Assembly (NCBI GenBank): GCA_951406725.2
Contig: OX597814.1
Location: forward strand, 22,816,001-22,880,000
Length of the DNA: 64,000 nt
Origin: Octopus vulgaris
Lineage: Eukaryota
Direction of reading: 5' to 3'
A program made the translations under genes and the position numbers. Shown here piece by piece: positions 15,905 through 24,465 of the stretch. Under the pieces are notes generated by a model. It saw only the letters and a program-made list of their open reading frames with translations. It did no database searches and had not been told where the DNA came from. Numbering within the stretch: position 1 is the first letter of the stretch; every line of letters starts with the position of its first letter.

Positions 15905-16295
15905 TACCCAATAACAGCAACCGAGGGTATTGTCAAGGAAGTTTCTTTCAATTGCATTGTTATACAAATACGTTAAGAAGTAGATATACAGTATAATGAA
16001 TACTACTTTGTTTGCAATGAAATGCACAGTAAGGTGGAAGTTATTGGATATAAAATAGTGCTTGCCAGCAGTTTTTTATTATTATACAAGAATTTTCAAA
16101 GGTACCATTAGCTTGGCTTTCTGTTATCTTAGATACCATTATCTTATAAGTTAGTTGCATATTTACTTCTGTGTATGTTATTGTGCGTGTGAGTGTGTTT
16201 AAATGTTTGTATTTGTGTTTGAGTCTTGATTGAGTACACTATTGAGAAACAGCGAACCATGCTGGATCCCTTTATGTTACAAATTTACTTAGCTA

Positions 16296-16512
16296 TGAGG
16301 GGTTGCTGAAAAGTTCCTGGCTTTAAGGGCATCGTGAAAAGTTTGGTTGGAGGCCCAGCCTTCTGAATTCTTTTAGAGGGCTTAGAAAAACTGAAGGAGC
16401 ACTGCAATATGTGTCTGAATCTGAGATGGGTATATGTTGAATAAAATCATAATTAACTAATCCTTCTGTATTTTCTTTTCCACAAAGCCAGGAACTTTCT
16501 AGTACCCCCTTG
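16296..16512. mobile_element. Mariner-derived MITE
   Basis: TIRs tgaggggttgctgaaaagttcctggcttt / aaagccaggaactttctagtacccccttg, preceded by TA; a related partial copy lies at 18331-18450. Confidence 0.75.
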
Positions 16513-16526
16513 TGTGTGTATATATA

Positions 16527-17818
16527 CGAGGGGCGTTCAATAAGTAATGCCCCTGACCCACCTCCCATAGCAGTAGAGCAACGAAACTTGGCACAGTTAT
16601 TAGACTTTTTCTACATAGGAAACACCCAGAGTTATGCATTTCTCCCATTGTTTGATGCAGCTCTGGTGACCGTTTTTGTAGAAGACCCCAGCTTGGTCCT
16701 CCAACCTGAACGTGACTTCAGAAATCAAGGCTGCATCATCTGGGAAAGGCTTTCCTTTCAAAAACAACTTCATGACTGGGAAGAGGTGAAAATCAGAGGG
16801 TTCAAGGTCAGGAAAGTAGGGGGGATGGGGGAGGAGTTCATAGCCATACGCCTATGCTTCTGATCTGGCGACAAGCGAGTTGTGGACCGGAGCGTTGTCC
16901 TGCAGGAGGAGGATGTCTTTGCTGATCTTGCCCCGCCTCTTGATTTTGATAACTTCTCTTAATTTCCTCAAAAGTGAAGCATAATAGGCTCCTGCAATTG
17001 TGGTATCCTTTGCCAGGAAATCTCTCATCACTACTCCGTCCTGGTCCCAGAAGACTGTGAGCATGACCTTGCCAGCAGAGGGCTGCACCCTTGCCTTCTT
17101 TGGAGGGGGTGAGTCACGGTGCTTCCACTGCATTGACTGGACTTTGGTCTCTGGATCATCGTGATGGACCCAGGTTTCATCCTGTGTAATCAGTCTTTTG
17201 AAAAATTTTGACTCATCTTCTTGGCACATCTCCAAATTCACCCTCGAGCACTCAACGCATTCTTGCTTCTGGAAAGGTATGAGCAACCTGGGAATCCATT
17301 TGGCAGACACCTTTTGCATATGCAAATGGTCATGAATGATAGTTTCCACAGACCCGGTACTAATCTTGACCTCATGGGCTATTTGGCGAATAATTATGCG
17401 TCGATCTTCCAAAATGGCAGCCTCAACTTGACGGACAGATGCCTCATCAATGGCAGAAGAGGGCGACCAGATCTGGGAGCTGTTTCCACAGAGTTCCGAC
17501 CATGTTTGAATTCACGATGCCAGCGTTTTACAAGGTCATATGATGGGGCATCATCACCATAAGTTACTTTCATTTCATCAAAAGTCTCCCGTGGTGTGCG
17601 TCCTTTCAAATACAAAAACCGGATCACTGCTCGACACTCAACAGGCTCCATTTCACACTTGACTTTGTTCAAACACCTGTAAATCAGAAACCACAATTAA
17701 TTCAGAGCTGTAATTTGCCACTTACTCTATAGAGATATAAATGATTGCACATGCAAAATTTCAGCTAGATCCAACAACTGCAAGTGGATCAGAGGCATTA
17801 CTTATTGAACGTCCCTCG
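16527..17818 (-). mobile_element. Near-full-length mariner transposon (1292 bp)
   Basis: TIRs CGAGGGGCGTTCAATAAGTAATGCC / GGCATTACTTATTGAACGTCCCTCG, TA on both flanks, transposase inside. Confidence 0.95.
16600..17651 (-). pseudogene. Mariner D,D34D-type transposase pseudogene (irritans/Himar-like)
   Basis: MEPVECRAVIRFL...WIPRLL...QDETW...SAGKVMLTVFWD...QDNAPVH...HPPYFPDLEPSDF. One frameshift near 17400-17460 and an in-frame TAG at 16852-16854. Confidence 0.92.
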
Positions 17819-18248: not shown

Positions 18249-18284
<36 letters not shown>

Positions 18285-19480
18285 ATTCTTCAAACCAGGA
18301 ACTTTTCAGCACCACTTCATATATATATATATGAAGCGGTGCTGAAAAGTTCCTGGTTTGAAGAATATCAGGAAAAGCCTGGGCAAAGGCCCAAACTTCC
18401 AAGTTCTTTTACAGGGCTTAGAAAAACTGAAGGACCACTGCAATAAGTGCATAAATTTTATCAATTAATTTCTTTGTATAGATCCAACAGAAAGAATAAT
18501 AAATTATTAATATGAGTAATATACAATGGTGGATATTCAGCAATATTGTACCAAAGAAAATTATATTTAACCAATGAAAGTGTTGTCTGTGTGACCATTT
18601 GAAAAGCAAAAATAGCATTCAAATCTCCCTGCCTTAATTCCATCTTTAATGTCGTAGAAAAACAATATATTGGCTAAGGTAGTCTTGGTTATGTACAATA
18701 ACATGGTTACATCTGCATGTCTTTGATCAACCAGGGTTGACCTGGGCATAGAAACAGCAACTACAATAAAATATCTTTAAGACAATACTTCCATGTAAAG
18801 CAGGTAATAGTTTTCAACAGGTTGGCTAAATAATATTAATCAAAGATTACACCTCAACAAGTCTGATGTAATGTACTACAATATAACTTTCTTTCCATTA
18901 AATATAACACGTCAGAATATTAAATGAAAGCCAATATCCGAATAATAATAGACGGTGCATATTTGCAATTCCATAATGGGAATATATTCACAGTTATAAA
19001 CATTCATAGAATTCCAATACACTGTGTTTCATATATATTTAAAATATTTATACCAGATGAATTGAATTCAATTTCTAGTAAAGATAATGGCTACTAATAG
19101 TTCTATTTATTCTGGCTCTAAACTAATATAATTTACCCAAGATTTGAAGATTACATCATAGACACTGCAATGTATCGCTGTTTATTCAGAGAAAAAGAAT
19201 TAAAAGTGTATGTAGTGGGGTGGAGAAGTCTCGGCGTGTGTGGATAAGAGAGTAGAGAATGTGATTGATATGAGGAAAGGGATATAGAAAATAGAGAGAA
19301 CAGAAAGGGGGGGGGATAATGTAAGGAGTTACAACAGGCTGAGAGAAGGAGAAAGAGAAGGAGCAATTAATTAAGTTGAAAGAAAGAGGATTAGCAAGAT
19401 GTAAGAGGTGTAAAAGGGAGACAAGCAAATCAGTGATTAAGAATTCTCTCACTCATACACATACACACATACAAACATGA

Positions 19481-19724: not shown

Positions 19725-20376
19725 GACATGGGAAAGGAGAAAAGTAGAGGTTGTTGTGAAATATGCTAATTGAATTACTTGCACAATATTAAATACATTG
19801 GAATTAAAAGTAATTTACACTAGAAGTTTCTAACATTAATTGAACATTGATTAAATCATTTTCTTTGCAGCAACCCCTATGAACACTTTCTTCCTTGTAA
19901 CAACAACAACAACTACTACATCATAACATCTACAACAACAAATACAATGAATAACAACAACAACAACAACAACAACGACAACAACGACAACAACGACGAT
20001 GACGACAACAGCAACAACAACAATAAATTTTAATCAGCAAAATGGGTAAGCTGTGGTACTGAACGACTTTATAATGAATTTACATGATATTTTCGAAGTA
20101 GTAGTATAGTTGAGCAATGTTTATGTTATCCAATAGTAGAACGGAAGTTTCAGGATTATTTCAGCAATGTTATCTGTTGTATCTGATCCTAGTTACATTG
20201 AAATTATATTTATATAACATAAAGTATACTAGCCATCTCAATATGGCTAACCACTAAGGGTGGGTGTTACTGTAGCTTTTAGCTCCAGAAGATCATCGTC
20301 TCCAGCTGGCTTTAGGCACACTTTCTGTGTTCTTATGGTATTTGCAAAGGGAGGTCATCCCTCTCTCGCAAACCTA

Positions 20377-20437
20377 AGTGATACGCACGGACTGCAGTTT
20401 CGAGGTATTTGCCTCTTGTCAACGTACGGTAATCACC
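20377..20437 (-). ncRNA. Type I hammerhead ribozyme motif, U3:A8 core variant (left arm)
   Basis: Minus strand reads GTGAT tac CGTACG TTGACAA GAGG caaata CCTC GAAA CTGCAG TC CGTGCG t ATCAC. Confidence 0.75.
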
Positions 20438-20588
20438 GATTTACGATGAAAGGAAGACCTGTTTGCAAATACTTATGGGTTTTTCTTGTAACTTCCGTTA
20501 CTTGCAGACAGTTTTTCAAAATCAGTGGCGGAAGTTACTAGAAAAACCCATAAGTATTTGCAAACAGGTCTTCCTTTCATCGTAAACT

Positions 20589-20649
20589 GGTGATTACCAT
20601 ACGTTGACAAGAGGCAAATACCTCGAAACTGCAGTCCGTGCGTATCACT
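20589..20649 (+). ncRNA. Type I hammerhead ribozyme motif, U3:A8 core variant (right arm)
   Basis: Helix I CATACG/CGTGCG extended by GTGAT/ATCAC; core TTGACAA (20604-10); helix II GAGG/CCTC; GAAA (20625-28); palindromic helix III ACTGCAGT; GUC site (C20636). Confidence 0.75.
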
Positions 20650-21104
20650 TAGGTTTGCGAGAGAGGGATGACCTCCCTTTGCAAATACCATAAGGGCACA
20701 GAAAGTGTGCCTAAAGCCAGCTGGAGACGATGATCTCCTGGGGCTAAAAGCTTCAGTAACACCCACCCTGAGTGGTTAGCCATATTGAGATGGCTAGTAT
20801 ACTTCACGTTGTCAAGCAGTTACTGTTTACATCTCGTTCAGAGATTTATTATTGCTATATTTATATATTTTGCATTCAATTGGTGAACACTACATTCAGT
20901 GGTTACAGATTTCCAATGAGAAGATCACTGGTTCAGTGCATTTTTGATAGTGCAACTGACAGAGGTGTGTCTAAGAATCAGTGCAGAATAAATATCTCAT
21001 GGCTCTTCATTTGTACAATAATAATAAAAAAAAAACATTTTACAATCAAATATGCTTGTCAAAATCCTTTAGTGTCATAATTAAGTGTACTCTACATCAA
21101 ATTA

Positions 21105-22495
21105 TGGAAAAATTTTTGGGGAAAGTTTTCGGTGAAAATTTTCGAAAAATTTTAGGAGAAAAATTCGGTGAAAACTTTCGAAAAATTTTTGGGTAAAATT
21201 TTCGGTGAAAATTTTGGAAAAATTTTTGGGGAAAGTTTTCGGTGAAAATTTTCTAAAAATTTTTGGAGAAAATTTTCGGGTAAAATTTTCCAAAAAGTTT
21301 TGGGGAAAATTTTCGGTGAAAATTTTCAAAAAATTTTCGTGGAAAATTTTCGGTGAAAATTTTGGAAAAATTTTTGGGGAAAATTTTTCGTGAAAATTTT
21401 CGAAAAATTTTTGGGGAAACTTTTCGGTGAAAATATTCGAAAAATACTTCGAGAAAATTTTCGGTGAAAATATTCGAAAAATACTTCGTGAAAATTTTCG
21501 TTAAAATTTTGTTAAAATTTTTGTGAAAATTTTTGTTGGAAATTTTCGGTGAAAATTTACGAAAAATTTTTGGGGAAAATTTTCGTGGAAAATTTTCGGT
21601 GAAAAGTTTGGAAAAATTTTTGGGGAAAATTTTTGGTTAAAATTTACGGTGAAAATATTCGAAAAATATTTCGAGAAAATTTTCGCTGAAAAGTTTTGGA
21701 GAAATTTTCGAAAAATTATTGAGTAAAATTTTCGGTGACAATTTTCGAAAAATTTTTGGGGAAAATTTTCGGTGAAAATTTTCGAAAATTTTCTCCATAA
21801 ATTTTTCCAAAATTTTCAGCGAAAACTTTCCCCAAAACTTTTTCGAAAGTTTTCAGCGAAAATTTTCTCCAAAGATTTTTCCCAAAAAATACTTTGTGAT
21901 TTTTGGAAAATTATTGCCATACTTTGTGATTTTGGCACCGCTGGCTTTCCATACTTTGTGATTTCGGCACCGCTGGCCTTCCATACTTTGTGATTTTGGC
22001 CCCGCTGGTCTTCCATACTTTGTGATTTTGGCACCGCTGGCCATCCATACTTTTTACAAAATTTTCACCGAAAATTTTGCCCAAAAATTTTACCCAAAAT
22101 TTTTTGAAAATTTTCACCGAAAATTTTCTCGAAAAATTTTTCCAGTTTTTTCACCGAAAATTTTCCCCAAAAATTTTTCCAAAATGTTTTGAAAATTTTC
22201 ACCAAAAATTTTACCTGAAAATTTTTCGAAAATTTTCACTTTGTTATTTTGGTACCGTTGGCTTTCCATACTTCATGATTTTGGCACCGCTGGCCTTCCA
22301 TACTTTTTCCACTGAAAATTTTCCCAAAAACTTTTTCGAAAGTTTTCTCGAAAATTTTCACTGAAAATTTCACCAAAAAATTTTTCAAAAATTTTCACCG
22401 AAAACTTTCCCCAAAAATTTTTCGAAAATTTTACCCAACAATTTTCCCCAAAAAATTTTCCCAAAAAATACTTTGTGATTTTTCGAAAATTTTTG
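21105..22495. repeat. Composite satellite block 1 (37-bp and 32-bp units), orientation flips near 21790
   Basis: 37-bp unit GGTGAAAATTTTCGAAAAATTTTTGGGGAAAATTTTC on + up to ~21790, then on -, with 32-bp units on - at ~21890-22050 and ~22240-22305. Confidence 0.9.
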
Positions 22496-22503
22496 GTAGA
22501 TAC

Positions 22504-22565
<62 letters not shown>

Positions 22566-23035
22566 GCATGCATGCATATATGTATGTGTGTGGATGTATG
22601 TATGTATGTACGTATGTATGTATACGACGGACTTCTTTTAATTTCCTCTAGCAAATCCTTACAAAGATTTGGTCGGCCTGAGCGATCACTGAAGACACTT
22701 GCCGAAAGGGATGTTTTTAAAAAGAAATTATTTTAAAACTTAGATAAACCAAGAGCTAAACGTGGTTAGAAATTTTCAGGCTAACCTATCCTGCGATATG
22801 ATGATTGTTTTTCACACCACGTAGAATATAAAAGTAGTGTATAGTACTGATTGACAAGCCCATATGTCATGACTTTCAGCACTCTCTTAAACTATATGTA
22901 TGTTAATGTGTGTGTATGGTTGCATCTATAAATAATAAATAAATAACCATATAAAGCATATGAACGTGAACGTTTGTGAGTGTGTGTGTGTGCGTGTGAT
23001 ATTCTTGTGAAACGATAGCTGAAATAAATACTCAA

Positions 23036-24465
23036 AAAAAAATTTTTGGTAAAATTTACGAAAAATTTTTGGGGAAAATGTTCGGTGAAAATTTTCGAAA
23101 AATTTTTGTGGAAAATTTTCGGTGGAAATTTTCGAAAAATTTTTGTGGAAAACTTTCGGTGAAAGTTTTGGAAAAAGTATGGAAGGCCAGCGGTGCCAAA
23201 ATCACAAAGTATGGCAGGCCAGCGGTGCCAAAATCACAAAGTATGGCAGGCCAGCGGTGCCAATATCACAAAGTATGGAAAGCCAGCAGTGCCAAAATCA
23301 AAGTGAAAATTTTCGAAAGATTTTCGGCGAGAATTTTCGAAAAATTTTTGAGTAAAATTTTCGGTGACAATTTTCGAAAATTATTTGGGGAAAATTTTCG
23401 GTGAAAATTTTCAAAAATCTTTCGTTGAAAATTTTCGAAAAATTTTTGGGTAAAATTTTCGGTGAAAATTTTGGAAAAGTTTTTGGGGAAAATTTTCGAA
23501 AATATTTTCGGGTAAAATTTTCCCTGAAAATTTTCCAAATATTTCTGGGTAAAATTTTGGGTGAAAATTATGGAAAAATTTTTGGGGAAAGTTTTCGGTG
23601 AAAACTTACGAAAAATTTTTGGAGAAAATTTTCAGTGAAAATTTTCGAAAAATTTTTGGGTAAAATTTTCGGTGAAAATTATGGAAAAATTTTTGGGGAA
23701 AGTTTTCGGTGAAAATTTTCGAAGAAGTTTGGGGGAAAATTTTCGTGGAAAATTTTCGGTGAAAACTTTTGAAAAATCTTTGGGGAAAATTTTTGGTGCA
23801 AATTTTCGAAAAATTTTTGGGGAAACTTTTCGATGAAAATATTCGAAACATACTTCCAGAAAATTTTCGGTGAAAATATTCGAAAAAATATTTCCAGAAA
23901 ATTTTCGTTAAAATTTTGGAAAAATTTTTGGGGGAAATTTTCGAAATTTTTTGGGGGAAAATTTTCGGTGAAAGTTTTTGAAAAAGTATGGAAGGCCAGC
24001 GGTGCCAACATCACAAATTACGGAAGGCCACCGGTGCCAAAATCACAAAGTATGGAAGGCCAGCGGTGCCAAAATCACAAAGTATGGCAAAAATTTTCGA
24101 AAAATCAAAGTATTTTTTTGGAAAAATTTTTGGGGAAAATTTTCGAAAAAGTTTTGGGGAAACTTTTCGGTGAAAATTTTCGAAAAATTTCTGGAGAAAC
24201 TTTTCGTTGAAAATTTTTAAAAAATTATGGAAGGCCAGCGGTGCCAAAATGACAAATTATGGAAGGCCACCGGTGCCAAAATCACAAAGTATGGAAGGCC
24301 AGTGGTGCCAAAATCACAAAGTATGGAAAGCCAGCGGTGCCAAAATCACAAAGTGAAAATTTTCGAAAAATTTTTGATTAAAATTTTCGGTGACAATTTT
24401 CGAAAAATGTTTGGGGAAAATTTTTGGTGAAAATTTTCAAAAATTTTTCGTTGAAAATTTTTAAA
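23036..24465 (+). repeat. Composite satellite block 2
   Basis: 37-bp units interspersed with runs of the 32-bp unit GGAAGGCCAGCGGTGCCAAAATCACAAAGTAT (23176-23300, 23986-24090, 24228-24352). Confidence 0.9.

What the first reader, a model, noticed from the sequence alone, without database searches (positions are those of the whole stretch)
20222..20804. 580-bp palindrome with a non-canonical U3:A8 hammerhead in both polarities
Seen: 276-bp arms with about 10 mismatches, each holding CRTACG-TTGACAA-GAGG(caaata)CCTC-GAAA-CTGCAG-TC-CGTGCG. Further hairpins follow downstream (GCACA gaaag TGTGC; AGCCAT attgag ATGGCT; TTTGCGA..GAGG gatga CCTC..TTTGCAAA). Established: C3 and G8 form a tertiary Watson-Crick pair, so a joint C3U+G8A change is compensatory; core searches for CUGANGA would miss it. 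Inference: transcription from either strand gives a ribozyme plus a long dsRNA stem, i.e. a structured non-coding mobile RNA rather than an ordinary MITE.
Basis: partly seen in the sequence, partly recalled or inferred. Interest (0 to 1): 0.85.

Follow-up and report, generated by a model that had tools for sequence, protein, structure and literature searches.

The report
Head-to-head retrozyme insertion with Penelope ends
The palindrome is two back-to-back copies of a 355-base non-coding repeat carrying a hammerhead ribozyme motif, and across this genome such pairs almost always end at two different fixed sites, which likely means a Penelope-type enzyme copies the RNA from both cut DNA strands at once.

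Summary
It is one insertion (20216-20856, 10-12-bp TSD) of a 350-364-nt animal non-LTR retrozyme with at least 1,688 hammerhead cores in G000, a 10-unit tandem array and a covarying fold. U3:A8 is fixed in this subfamily. It is a published natural variant, and sister subfamilies use C3:G8 (620) or U3·G8 (585); C3·A8 occurs 3 times. A transcript of the palindrome is predicted to bury the ribozyme, whereas tandem copies fold into the active double hammerhead. The useful result is an insertion rule. Of 214 outer 3' ends, 191 fall at two sites 46 nt apart (A and B). Inversions are head-to-head in 69 of 69 cases, and 51 of 52 classifiable ones carry one A and one B end. The same holds in 13 of 13 autonomous Penelope-like elements. 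Inverted copies with a one-sided tail are known; the strict pairing and independent arm lengths favour priming from both target strands at different start sites. No autonomous partner was found, and cleavage and expression are untested. The scan noted similar palindromic Penelope insertions in other genomes.

The parts
20205..20216 (+). left target-site duplication TATATTTATATA (10-bp core 20206-20215; one base at each edge is ambiguous)
20216..20498 (-). left arm: 5'-truncated retrozyme copy, unit positions 248 to 176 (numbered from the ribozyme cut), 3' end at site A facing the left flank
   Evidence: 95% to a real tandem unit
20384..20428 (-). type I hammerhead motif, U3:A8 core, helix I 6 of 6 pairs, palindromic loop III (CTGCAG); predicted cut after C17 at 20390
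20498..20856 (+). right arm: about one full unit, positions 218 to 222, 3' end at site B facing the right flank
20598..20642 (+). type I hammerhead motif, U3:A8 core, one A·C mismatch in helix I; predicted cut after C17 at 20636
20695..20711 (+). hairpin of the unit's predicted fold (mirrored in the left arm)
20778..20795 (+). conserved hairpin about 15 nt upstream of site A
20811..20856 (+). 46-nt 'tail' between sites A and B, present on the right end only
20856..20867 (+). right target-site duplication (10-bp core 20857-20866)

Best explanation
This is a single, decaying insertion of a 355-nt non-coding hammerhead repeat (an animal non-LTR retrozyme), and its palindrome was likely made during insertion, when a Penelope-type reverse transcriptase/endonuclease likely extended both nicked target strands, one from start site A and one from start site B of the RNA. 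Shown: the unit, tandem arrays, two fixed 3' ends 46 nt apart, head-to-head polarity, one-of-each pairing, TSDs and independent arm lengths. Inferred: tandem loci are transcribed and cut by double hammerheads; an uncut multimer or a circle is the template; an enzyme dimer makes a staggered cut of about 9-14 bp in AT-rich DNA; the two truncated cDNAs are joined at their far ends. The palindrome itself is predicted to be ribozyme-dead.
For: Unit of 355-357 nt with a 10-unit array on C4 and 2,821 first-look candidates. In that subfamily the minimum-energy fold of a real tandem dimer is the double hammerhead (helix III pairing 0.81-1.0). The consensus fold of 8 units has 94% of cells paired and 20 well-kept two-sided changes, against 38-44% and 0-3 for slid controls. 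Loop III is a perfect palindrome in 66 of 77 distinct variants. 191 of 214 outer 3' ends lie at A (103) or B (88). Head-to-head 69, tail-to-tail 0. A/B 51, A/A 1, B/B 0; 50 of 51 against 0.46 expected gives p=4e-16. The one A/A (L024) ends in B-site sequence after a deletion. Autonomous PLEs: 11 of 11 and 2 of 2 are A/B. TSD of 8 bp or more in 12 of 20 non-microsatellite head-to-head inserts against 0.5% of shuffled flank pairs. Arm lengths are uncorrelated (rho -0.10), and 23 of 45 cannot be a fold-back copy in either direction. Arms of one insert are closer than random copies (4.5% against 6.1%, p=7e-5). In vitro a PLE protein extends both strands and starts at two internal sites bounding the tail (PMC11167929).
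Against: No autonomous PLE with sequence similarity to the unit was found among the 76 PLE loci examined, so the partner is inferred from insertion anatomy alone. 17 of 69 head-to-head inserts have an end outside A or B and were not scored. At least two A/B pairs are duplicates of one event (L185/L190 and the two copies in L208), leaving about 49 independent. Loci were chosen by best BLAST score or by intact cores, which favours long, young copies. For this window's copy alone a fold-back is not excluded (B arm 362, A arm 286). Dimer helix III pairing is weak in 3 of 9 units (0.01-0.28). U3·G8 cores are common (585) and occur in young subfamilies, so a Watson-Crick 3-8 pair may not be needed for spread. 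Cleavage, expression and circles are untested.
Confidence: 0.8

Rival explanations
1. Same element, but the inverted arm arises by self-priming or fold-back (or from an antisense template), and the endonuclease then trims one end to leave the tail on one side, as proposed earlier for PLEs.
For: It gives head-to-head polarity and a one-sided tail (PMC3846280 discussion passage; PMC8557442). This window's copy fits a 30-nt loop. Arms of one insert are more alike than random copies.
Against: A fold-back copy must lie within the first arm. 30 of 45 A arms are too long to be copied from the B arm, and 23 of 45 fit neither direction. Arm lengths are uncorrelated, and most junction overlaps are short (1-6 nt).
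Confidence: 0.12
2. The palindrome is a selected functional unit: a two-polarity ribozyme RNA or a dsRNA source.
For: 641 nt folds at about -535 kcal/mol, so it would be an editing or small-RNA substrate if transcribed. Both cores are intact.
Against: The two-arm structure differs in every insertion. 76 of 145 inserts have no inverted arm. The arms differ at 13 of 283 sites, with mostly arm-private changes. The ribozyme is predicted buried on both strands.
Confidence: 0.05
3. A MITE or fold-back DNA transposon, or an assembly artefact.
For: Near-perfect long inverted repeat with a TSD.
Against: The termini are not mirror images (A on one side, B on the other). The family occurs as tandems and 5'-truncated single copies. 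Arms are 4.6% diverged. Dozens of independent loci follow the same end rule.
Confidence: 0.02

Closest known systems
Animal non-LTR retrozymes (Cervera and de la Pena 2020, PMC7229834; Li, Clavereau and Pollet 2026, 10.64898/2026.07.22.740005)
   Same: Non-coding 350-364-nt unit, one type I hammerhead per unit, monomers to multimers, palindromic loop III suited to dimer cleavage, TSD longer than 4 bp, PLEs in the same genome.
   Different: The core is U3:A8 or U3·G8 in 1,061 of 1,688 copies, so CUGANGA descriptors would miss them. In the text I read, those papers link retrozymes to PLEs by co-occurrence and pLTR homology, not by insertion ends. Circular RNA and cleavage are untested here.
Insertion units of endonuclease-positive Penelope-like elements (PMC3846280, PMC8557442, PMC11167929)
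   Same: 5' truncation, adjacent inverted head-to-head copy, a tail at one end only, 8-14-bp TSD, AT-rich or (TA)n targets, two internal RT start sites bounding the tail.
   Different: No ORF. The tail is 46 nt against the 30-40 nt reported. The papers call the tail optional or 'often' one-sided; here it is counted as near-strict one-of-each in retrozymes and in two autonomous families.
U3-A8 hammerheads (PMC3088659; Schistosoma Cercyon PLE, PMC4209133)
   Same: The same compensatory core change. A 781-aa PLE family in this genome also has a U3:A8 minimal hammerhead-like motif in its 3' repeat.
   Different: Here one family holds C3:G8, U3·G8 and U3:A8 side by side with C3·A8 nearly absent; U3:A8 appears in two separate lineages.

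Membership tests
Animal non-LTR retrozyme | type I hammerhead in each unit | tested here: met
   (Rfam match below the gathering score)
Animal non-LTR retrozyme | tandem repeats of 150-450 bp, dimers to multimers | tested here: met
   350-364-nt units; 10-unit array on C4
Animal non-LTR retrozyme | non-coding, highly self-paired unit | tested here: met
   z=-6.3 for one arm; covariation beyond slid controls; the unit is too short to encode an RT
Animal non-LTR retrozyme | TSD longer than 4 bp when present | tested here: met
   9-14 bp in 12 of 20 scored head-to-head inserts
Animal non-LTR retrozyme | no LTR, primer-binding site or polypurine tract | not tested
   no LTR layout seen; PBS and PPT not searched
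Animal non-LTR retrozyme | self-cleavage as monomer or dimer | not testable with these tools
   folding prediction only
Animal non-LTR retrozyme | accumulates as linear and circular RNA | not testable with these tools
   only contigs of runs not on record as RNA were available
Penelope-type insertion | fixed 3' ends with an optional tail, variable 5' truncation | tested here: met
   191 of 214 ends at A or B; 5' ends spread over the unit
Penelope-type insertion | adjacent inverted head-to-head copy inside one TSD | tested here: met
   69 head-to-head, 0 tail-to-tail
Autonomous Penelope-like element | RT plus GIY-YIG ORF | tested here: not met
   none in or attached to the element; such ORFs exist elsewhere in G000
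Derivative of an identified PLE pLTR | sequence homology to a PLE terminal repeat | tested here: inconclusive
   none in the 76 PLE loci examined; most PLE families of G000 not examined
MITE / fold-back DNA transposon | mirror-image termini and uniform element structure | tested here: not met
   the ends differ (A against B) and structure varies per copy
Viroid-like RNA with ribozymes in both polarities | a ribozyme on each strand of the unit itself | tested here: not met
   tandem units carry the motif on one strand only; the second polarity here comes from the inversion

The most novel reading that the evidence does not exclude
Penelope-type integration is an asymmetric two-strand reaction: an RT-endonuclease dimer primes both target strands, and the two halves must use different RNA start sites. 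The one-A-one-B rule, seen in six retrozyme subfamilies and two autonomous families, would explain the inverted repeat and the one-sided tail together. It would also be direct insertion-level evidence that animal retrozymes ride on Penelope enzymes.
Probability: 0.55. Interest if true: 0.7.

Novelty: new member of a known kind. Interest (0 to 1): 0.48.

Why it matters
The element class, the U3:A8 core and inverted Penelope insertions are each known. What this family adds is a counted rule on an open question, how PLEs build their tandem and inverted structures and tails. It gives a sharp prediction for the existing in vitro system: start sites on the two strands of one product should be anti-correlated. 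It also offers a 355-nt minimal template for such assays, and a natural C3:G8 / U3·G8 / U3:A8 series for testing whether ribozyme cleavage matters for spread. About 63% of these cores would escape canonical searches.

Tried and rejected
1) Partner search. A 76% match beside a PLE ORF (L140) proved to be a separate diverged retrozyme about 600 bp past the PLE's end. The 775-aa and 781-aa PLE families show no blastn or nhmmer homology of their own ends to the unit. 1.4-1.6-kb periods of one subfamily were tandem duplications with flanking DNA, not ORF-bearing elements. The 1.9-kb-spaced pair in L061 has an unrelated ORF between the arms. A shared 5' breakpoint at position 275 had no common upstream sequence beyond about 10 nt. 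One loose-end motif had 0 matches in G000. 2) Classical L1-type twin priming, where the inverted arm's 3' end abuts the other arm's 5' end: rejected, since both 3' ends are fixed and the 5' ends are free. 3) Template starting at the ribozyme cut: 5 of 164 5' ends lie within 5 nt of it against 4.6 expected (sample biased toward intact cores). 4) An apparent B/B autonomous insert (L159) was an alignment artefact of a (TA)n run; it is B/A. 5) Expression: no RNA holder listed; contigs of guessed-RNA runs lie on the unit but show no strand, ends or circles. 6) Rfam miRNA hits are generic hairpin matches below the gathering score. 7) The 5' sides of most 781-aa PLE copies were not examined, so that family gives only 2 scored inversions.

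Full report
Observation. Both arms hold a type I hammerhead motif with U3 and A8, G10.1-C11.1, a 6-bp helix I and a palindromic loop III. The right copy continues 46 nt beyond the palindrome to 20856, and the whole insert sits in a 10-12-bp TSD. The host is a 2.8-Gb animal genome; I did not determine its taxon.

The unit. One arm has 2,821 first-look candidates in G000 (40 scored), including ten head-to-tail copies on C4 with a 355-357-nt period. A relaxed core pattern gives 1,688 matches and 0 for the reversed control. Nine real tandem units of 350-364 nt, 70-100% identical to the reference unit, represent six subfamilies. The consensus fold of eight units keeps 94% of cells paired with 20 well-kept two-sided changes, against 38-44% and 0-3 when slid. 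The structure was derived from these same sequences, which favours the unslid score. For the window's subfamily the minimum-energy fold of a real tandem dimer is the double hammerhead; this is strong in 4, middling in 2 and weak in 3 of 9 units. These features match animal non-LTR retrozymes (PMC7229834, passages and parts 2-3 of 6 read; preprint 10.64898/2026.07.22.740005, parts 1-3 of 5 read; its supplements were not seen and might list invertebrate families).

The core. Of 1,688 cores, 620 are C3:G8, 585 U3·G8, 476 U3:A8, 3 C3·A8 and 4 other. These are copies, not independent events. U3:A8 occurs in two lineages separated by supported branches that include U3·G8 units; the order of changes needs a root and is not claimed. 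Loop III is a perfect palindrome in 66 of 77 distinct variants. U3-A8 was reported in nature and called active in vitro (PMC3088659, passages), and about 1,300 such motifs were found in Schistosoma with the Cercyon PLE (PMC4209133, parts 1-2 of 4 read). A young 781-aa PLE family in G000 carries a U3:A8 minimal motif too. The activity of U3·G8 is untested here.

The palindrome is a by-product. Folding the 641-nt insert on either strand gives zero probability for helices I and II: a transcript holds one sense motif paired to its antisense and no second sense motif. The arms differ at 13 of 283 sites. They share one rare variant (7 of 102 segments) and two subfamily variants, and otherwise carry their own changes, which fits one event followed by neutral decay. 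Across 24 inserts the arms are closer to each other than to other copies (4.5% against 6.1%).

The insertion rule. Numbering from the ribozyme cut, 103 outer 3' ends lie at about 176 (A), 88 at about 222 (B) and 23 elsewhere. Of 145 non-redundant insertions, 76 are single-orientation, 69 head-to-head and none tail-to-tail. Many head-to-head loci were fetched because two opposed cores were listed, so 69 is not a genome frequency. Among head-to-head inserts, 51 are A/B, 1 nominally A/A, 0 B/B, and 17 have an unclassified end. The A/A case ends in B-site sequence after a deletion. At least two A/B pairs are duplicates of one event. The rule holds in all six subfamilies. 49 of 69 have a (TA)n flank; among the other 20, 12 have a TSD of 9-14 bp, against 7 of 43 single-orientation inserts with 8 bp or more and 0.5% of shuffled pairs. 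The window's copy is A on the left and B on the right. Autonomous elements follow the same rule. A very young two-ORF family (775-aa RT plus GIY-YIG, 75 further copies identical over 573 aa) is A/B in 11 of 11 inversions with both ends read, and the 781-aa family in 2 of 2.

Mechanism. A purified PLE protein nicks AT-rich DNA, extends both strands, starts at two internal RNA sites that bound the genomic tail, is predicted to be a dimer, and does not need ribozyme cleavage for insertion (PMC11167929, parts 1-2 of 4 read). I infer that each target strand primes one cDNA, one at A and one at B, and that the truncated cDNAs join at short overlaps (mostly 1-6 nt). The earlier proposal of self-priming, with the tail left by endonuclease resolution (PMC3846280, passages; PMC8557442, passages), requires one arm to lie within the other. 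23 of 45 simple A/B inserts fit neither direction, and arm lengths are uncorrelated. This window's near-symmetry is fortuitous and does not itself exclude fold-back. 39 of 90 arms exceed one unit and 5' ends do not cluster at the cut, so the template is an uncut multimer or a circle; I cannot tell which.

What is missing. No autonomous partner with homology to the unit was found in 76 PLE loci. Cleavage, expression and circles are untested.

Novelty. The class, the core variant and inverted PLE insertions with a tail on one arm are published. I found no statement of a strict one-of-each rule, or of Penelope-type ends on retrozymes, in the text read or in searches. [quoted passage not shown] Earlier notes of this scan report similar palindromic PLE insertions in other genomes. 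Verdict: a new member of a known kind, with a mechanistic observation worth testing.

Noticed in passing
G000:C3:5852500-5862499 (L162) and 75 further loci: Very young two-ORF Penelope-like family: 4,270-bp unit, a 454-aa upstream ORF with no Pfam match, a 775-aa RT plus GIY-YIG ORF, (TA)n targets, and no convincing hammerhead found by my pattern.
   Followed up: partly
L131-L139 (e.g. G000:C16:20835500-20840500): Second PLE family with many intact 781-aa ORFs, a U3:A8 minimal hammerhead-like motif about 1 kb past the ORF and a roughly 40-nt one-sided tail.
   Followed up: partly
G000-wide; e.g. L219, L223, L224: 585 cores carry a U3·G8 wobble, including subfamilies whose copies are 98-100% identical, so they spread recently without a Watson-Crick 3-8 pair.
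   Followed up: partly
window 21025-24350: A/T-rich 37-bp satellite in blocks of opposite orientation, with 32-bp repeats at the turns, forming kilobase-scale inverted repeats.
   Followed up: no
window 18281-18372 and 16283-16420: 92-bp perfect-looking hairpin with a (TA)n centre; its right half begins a 138-nt repeat also found 2 kb upstream, near a transposase-like frame at 16852-17511 (the Tc1/mariner resemblance is recalled, not tested).
   Followed up: no
L207 (G000:C1:94320500-94329500): A retrozyme copy co-amplified with a LINE RT fragment in a 1.38-kb tandem array.
   Followed up: partly
runs listed: Words of the unit are held by runs labelled as five different coded organisms, so the family probably spans related species; only organisms A and B were laid.
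   Followed up: partly
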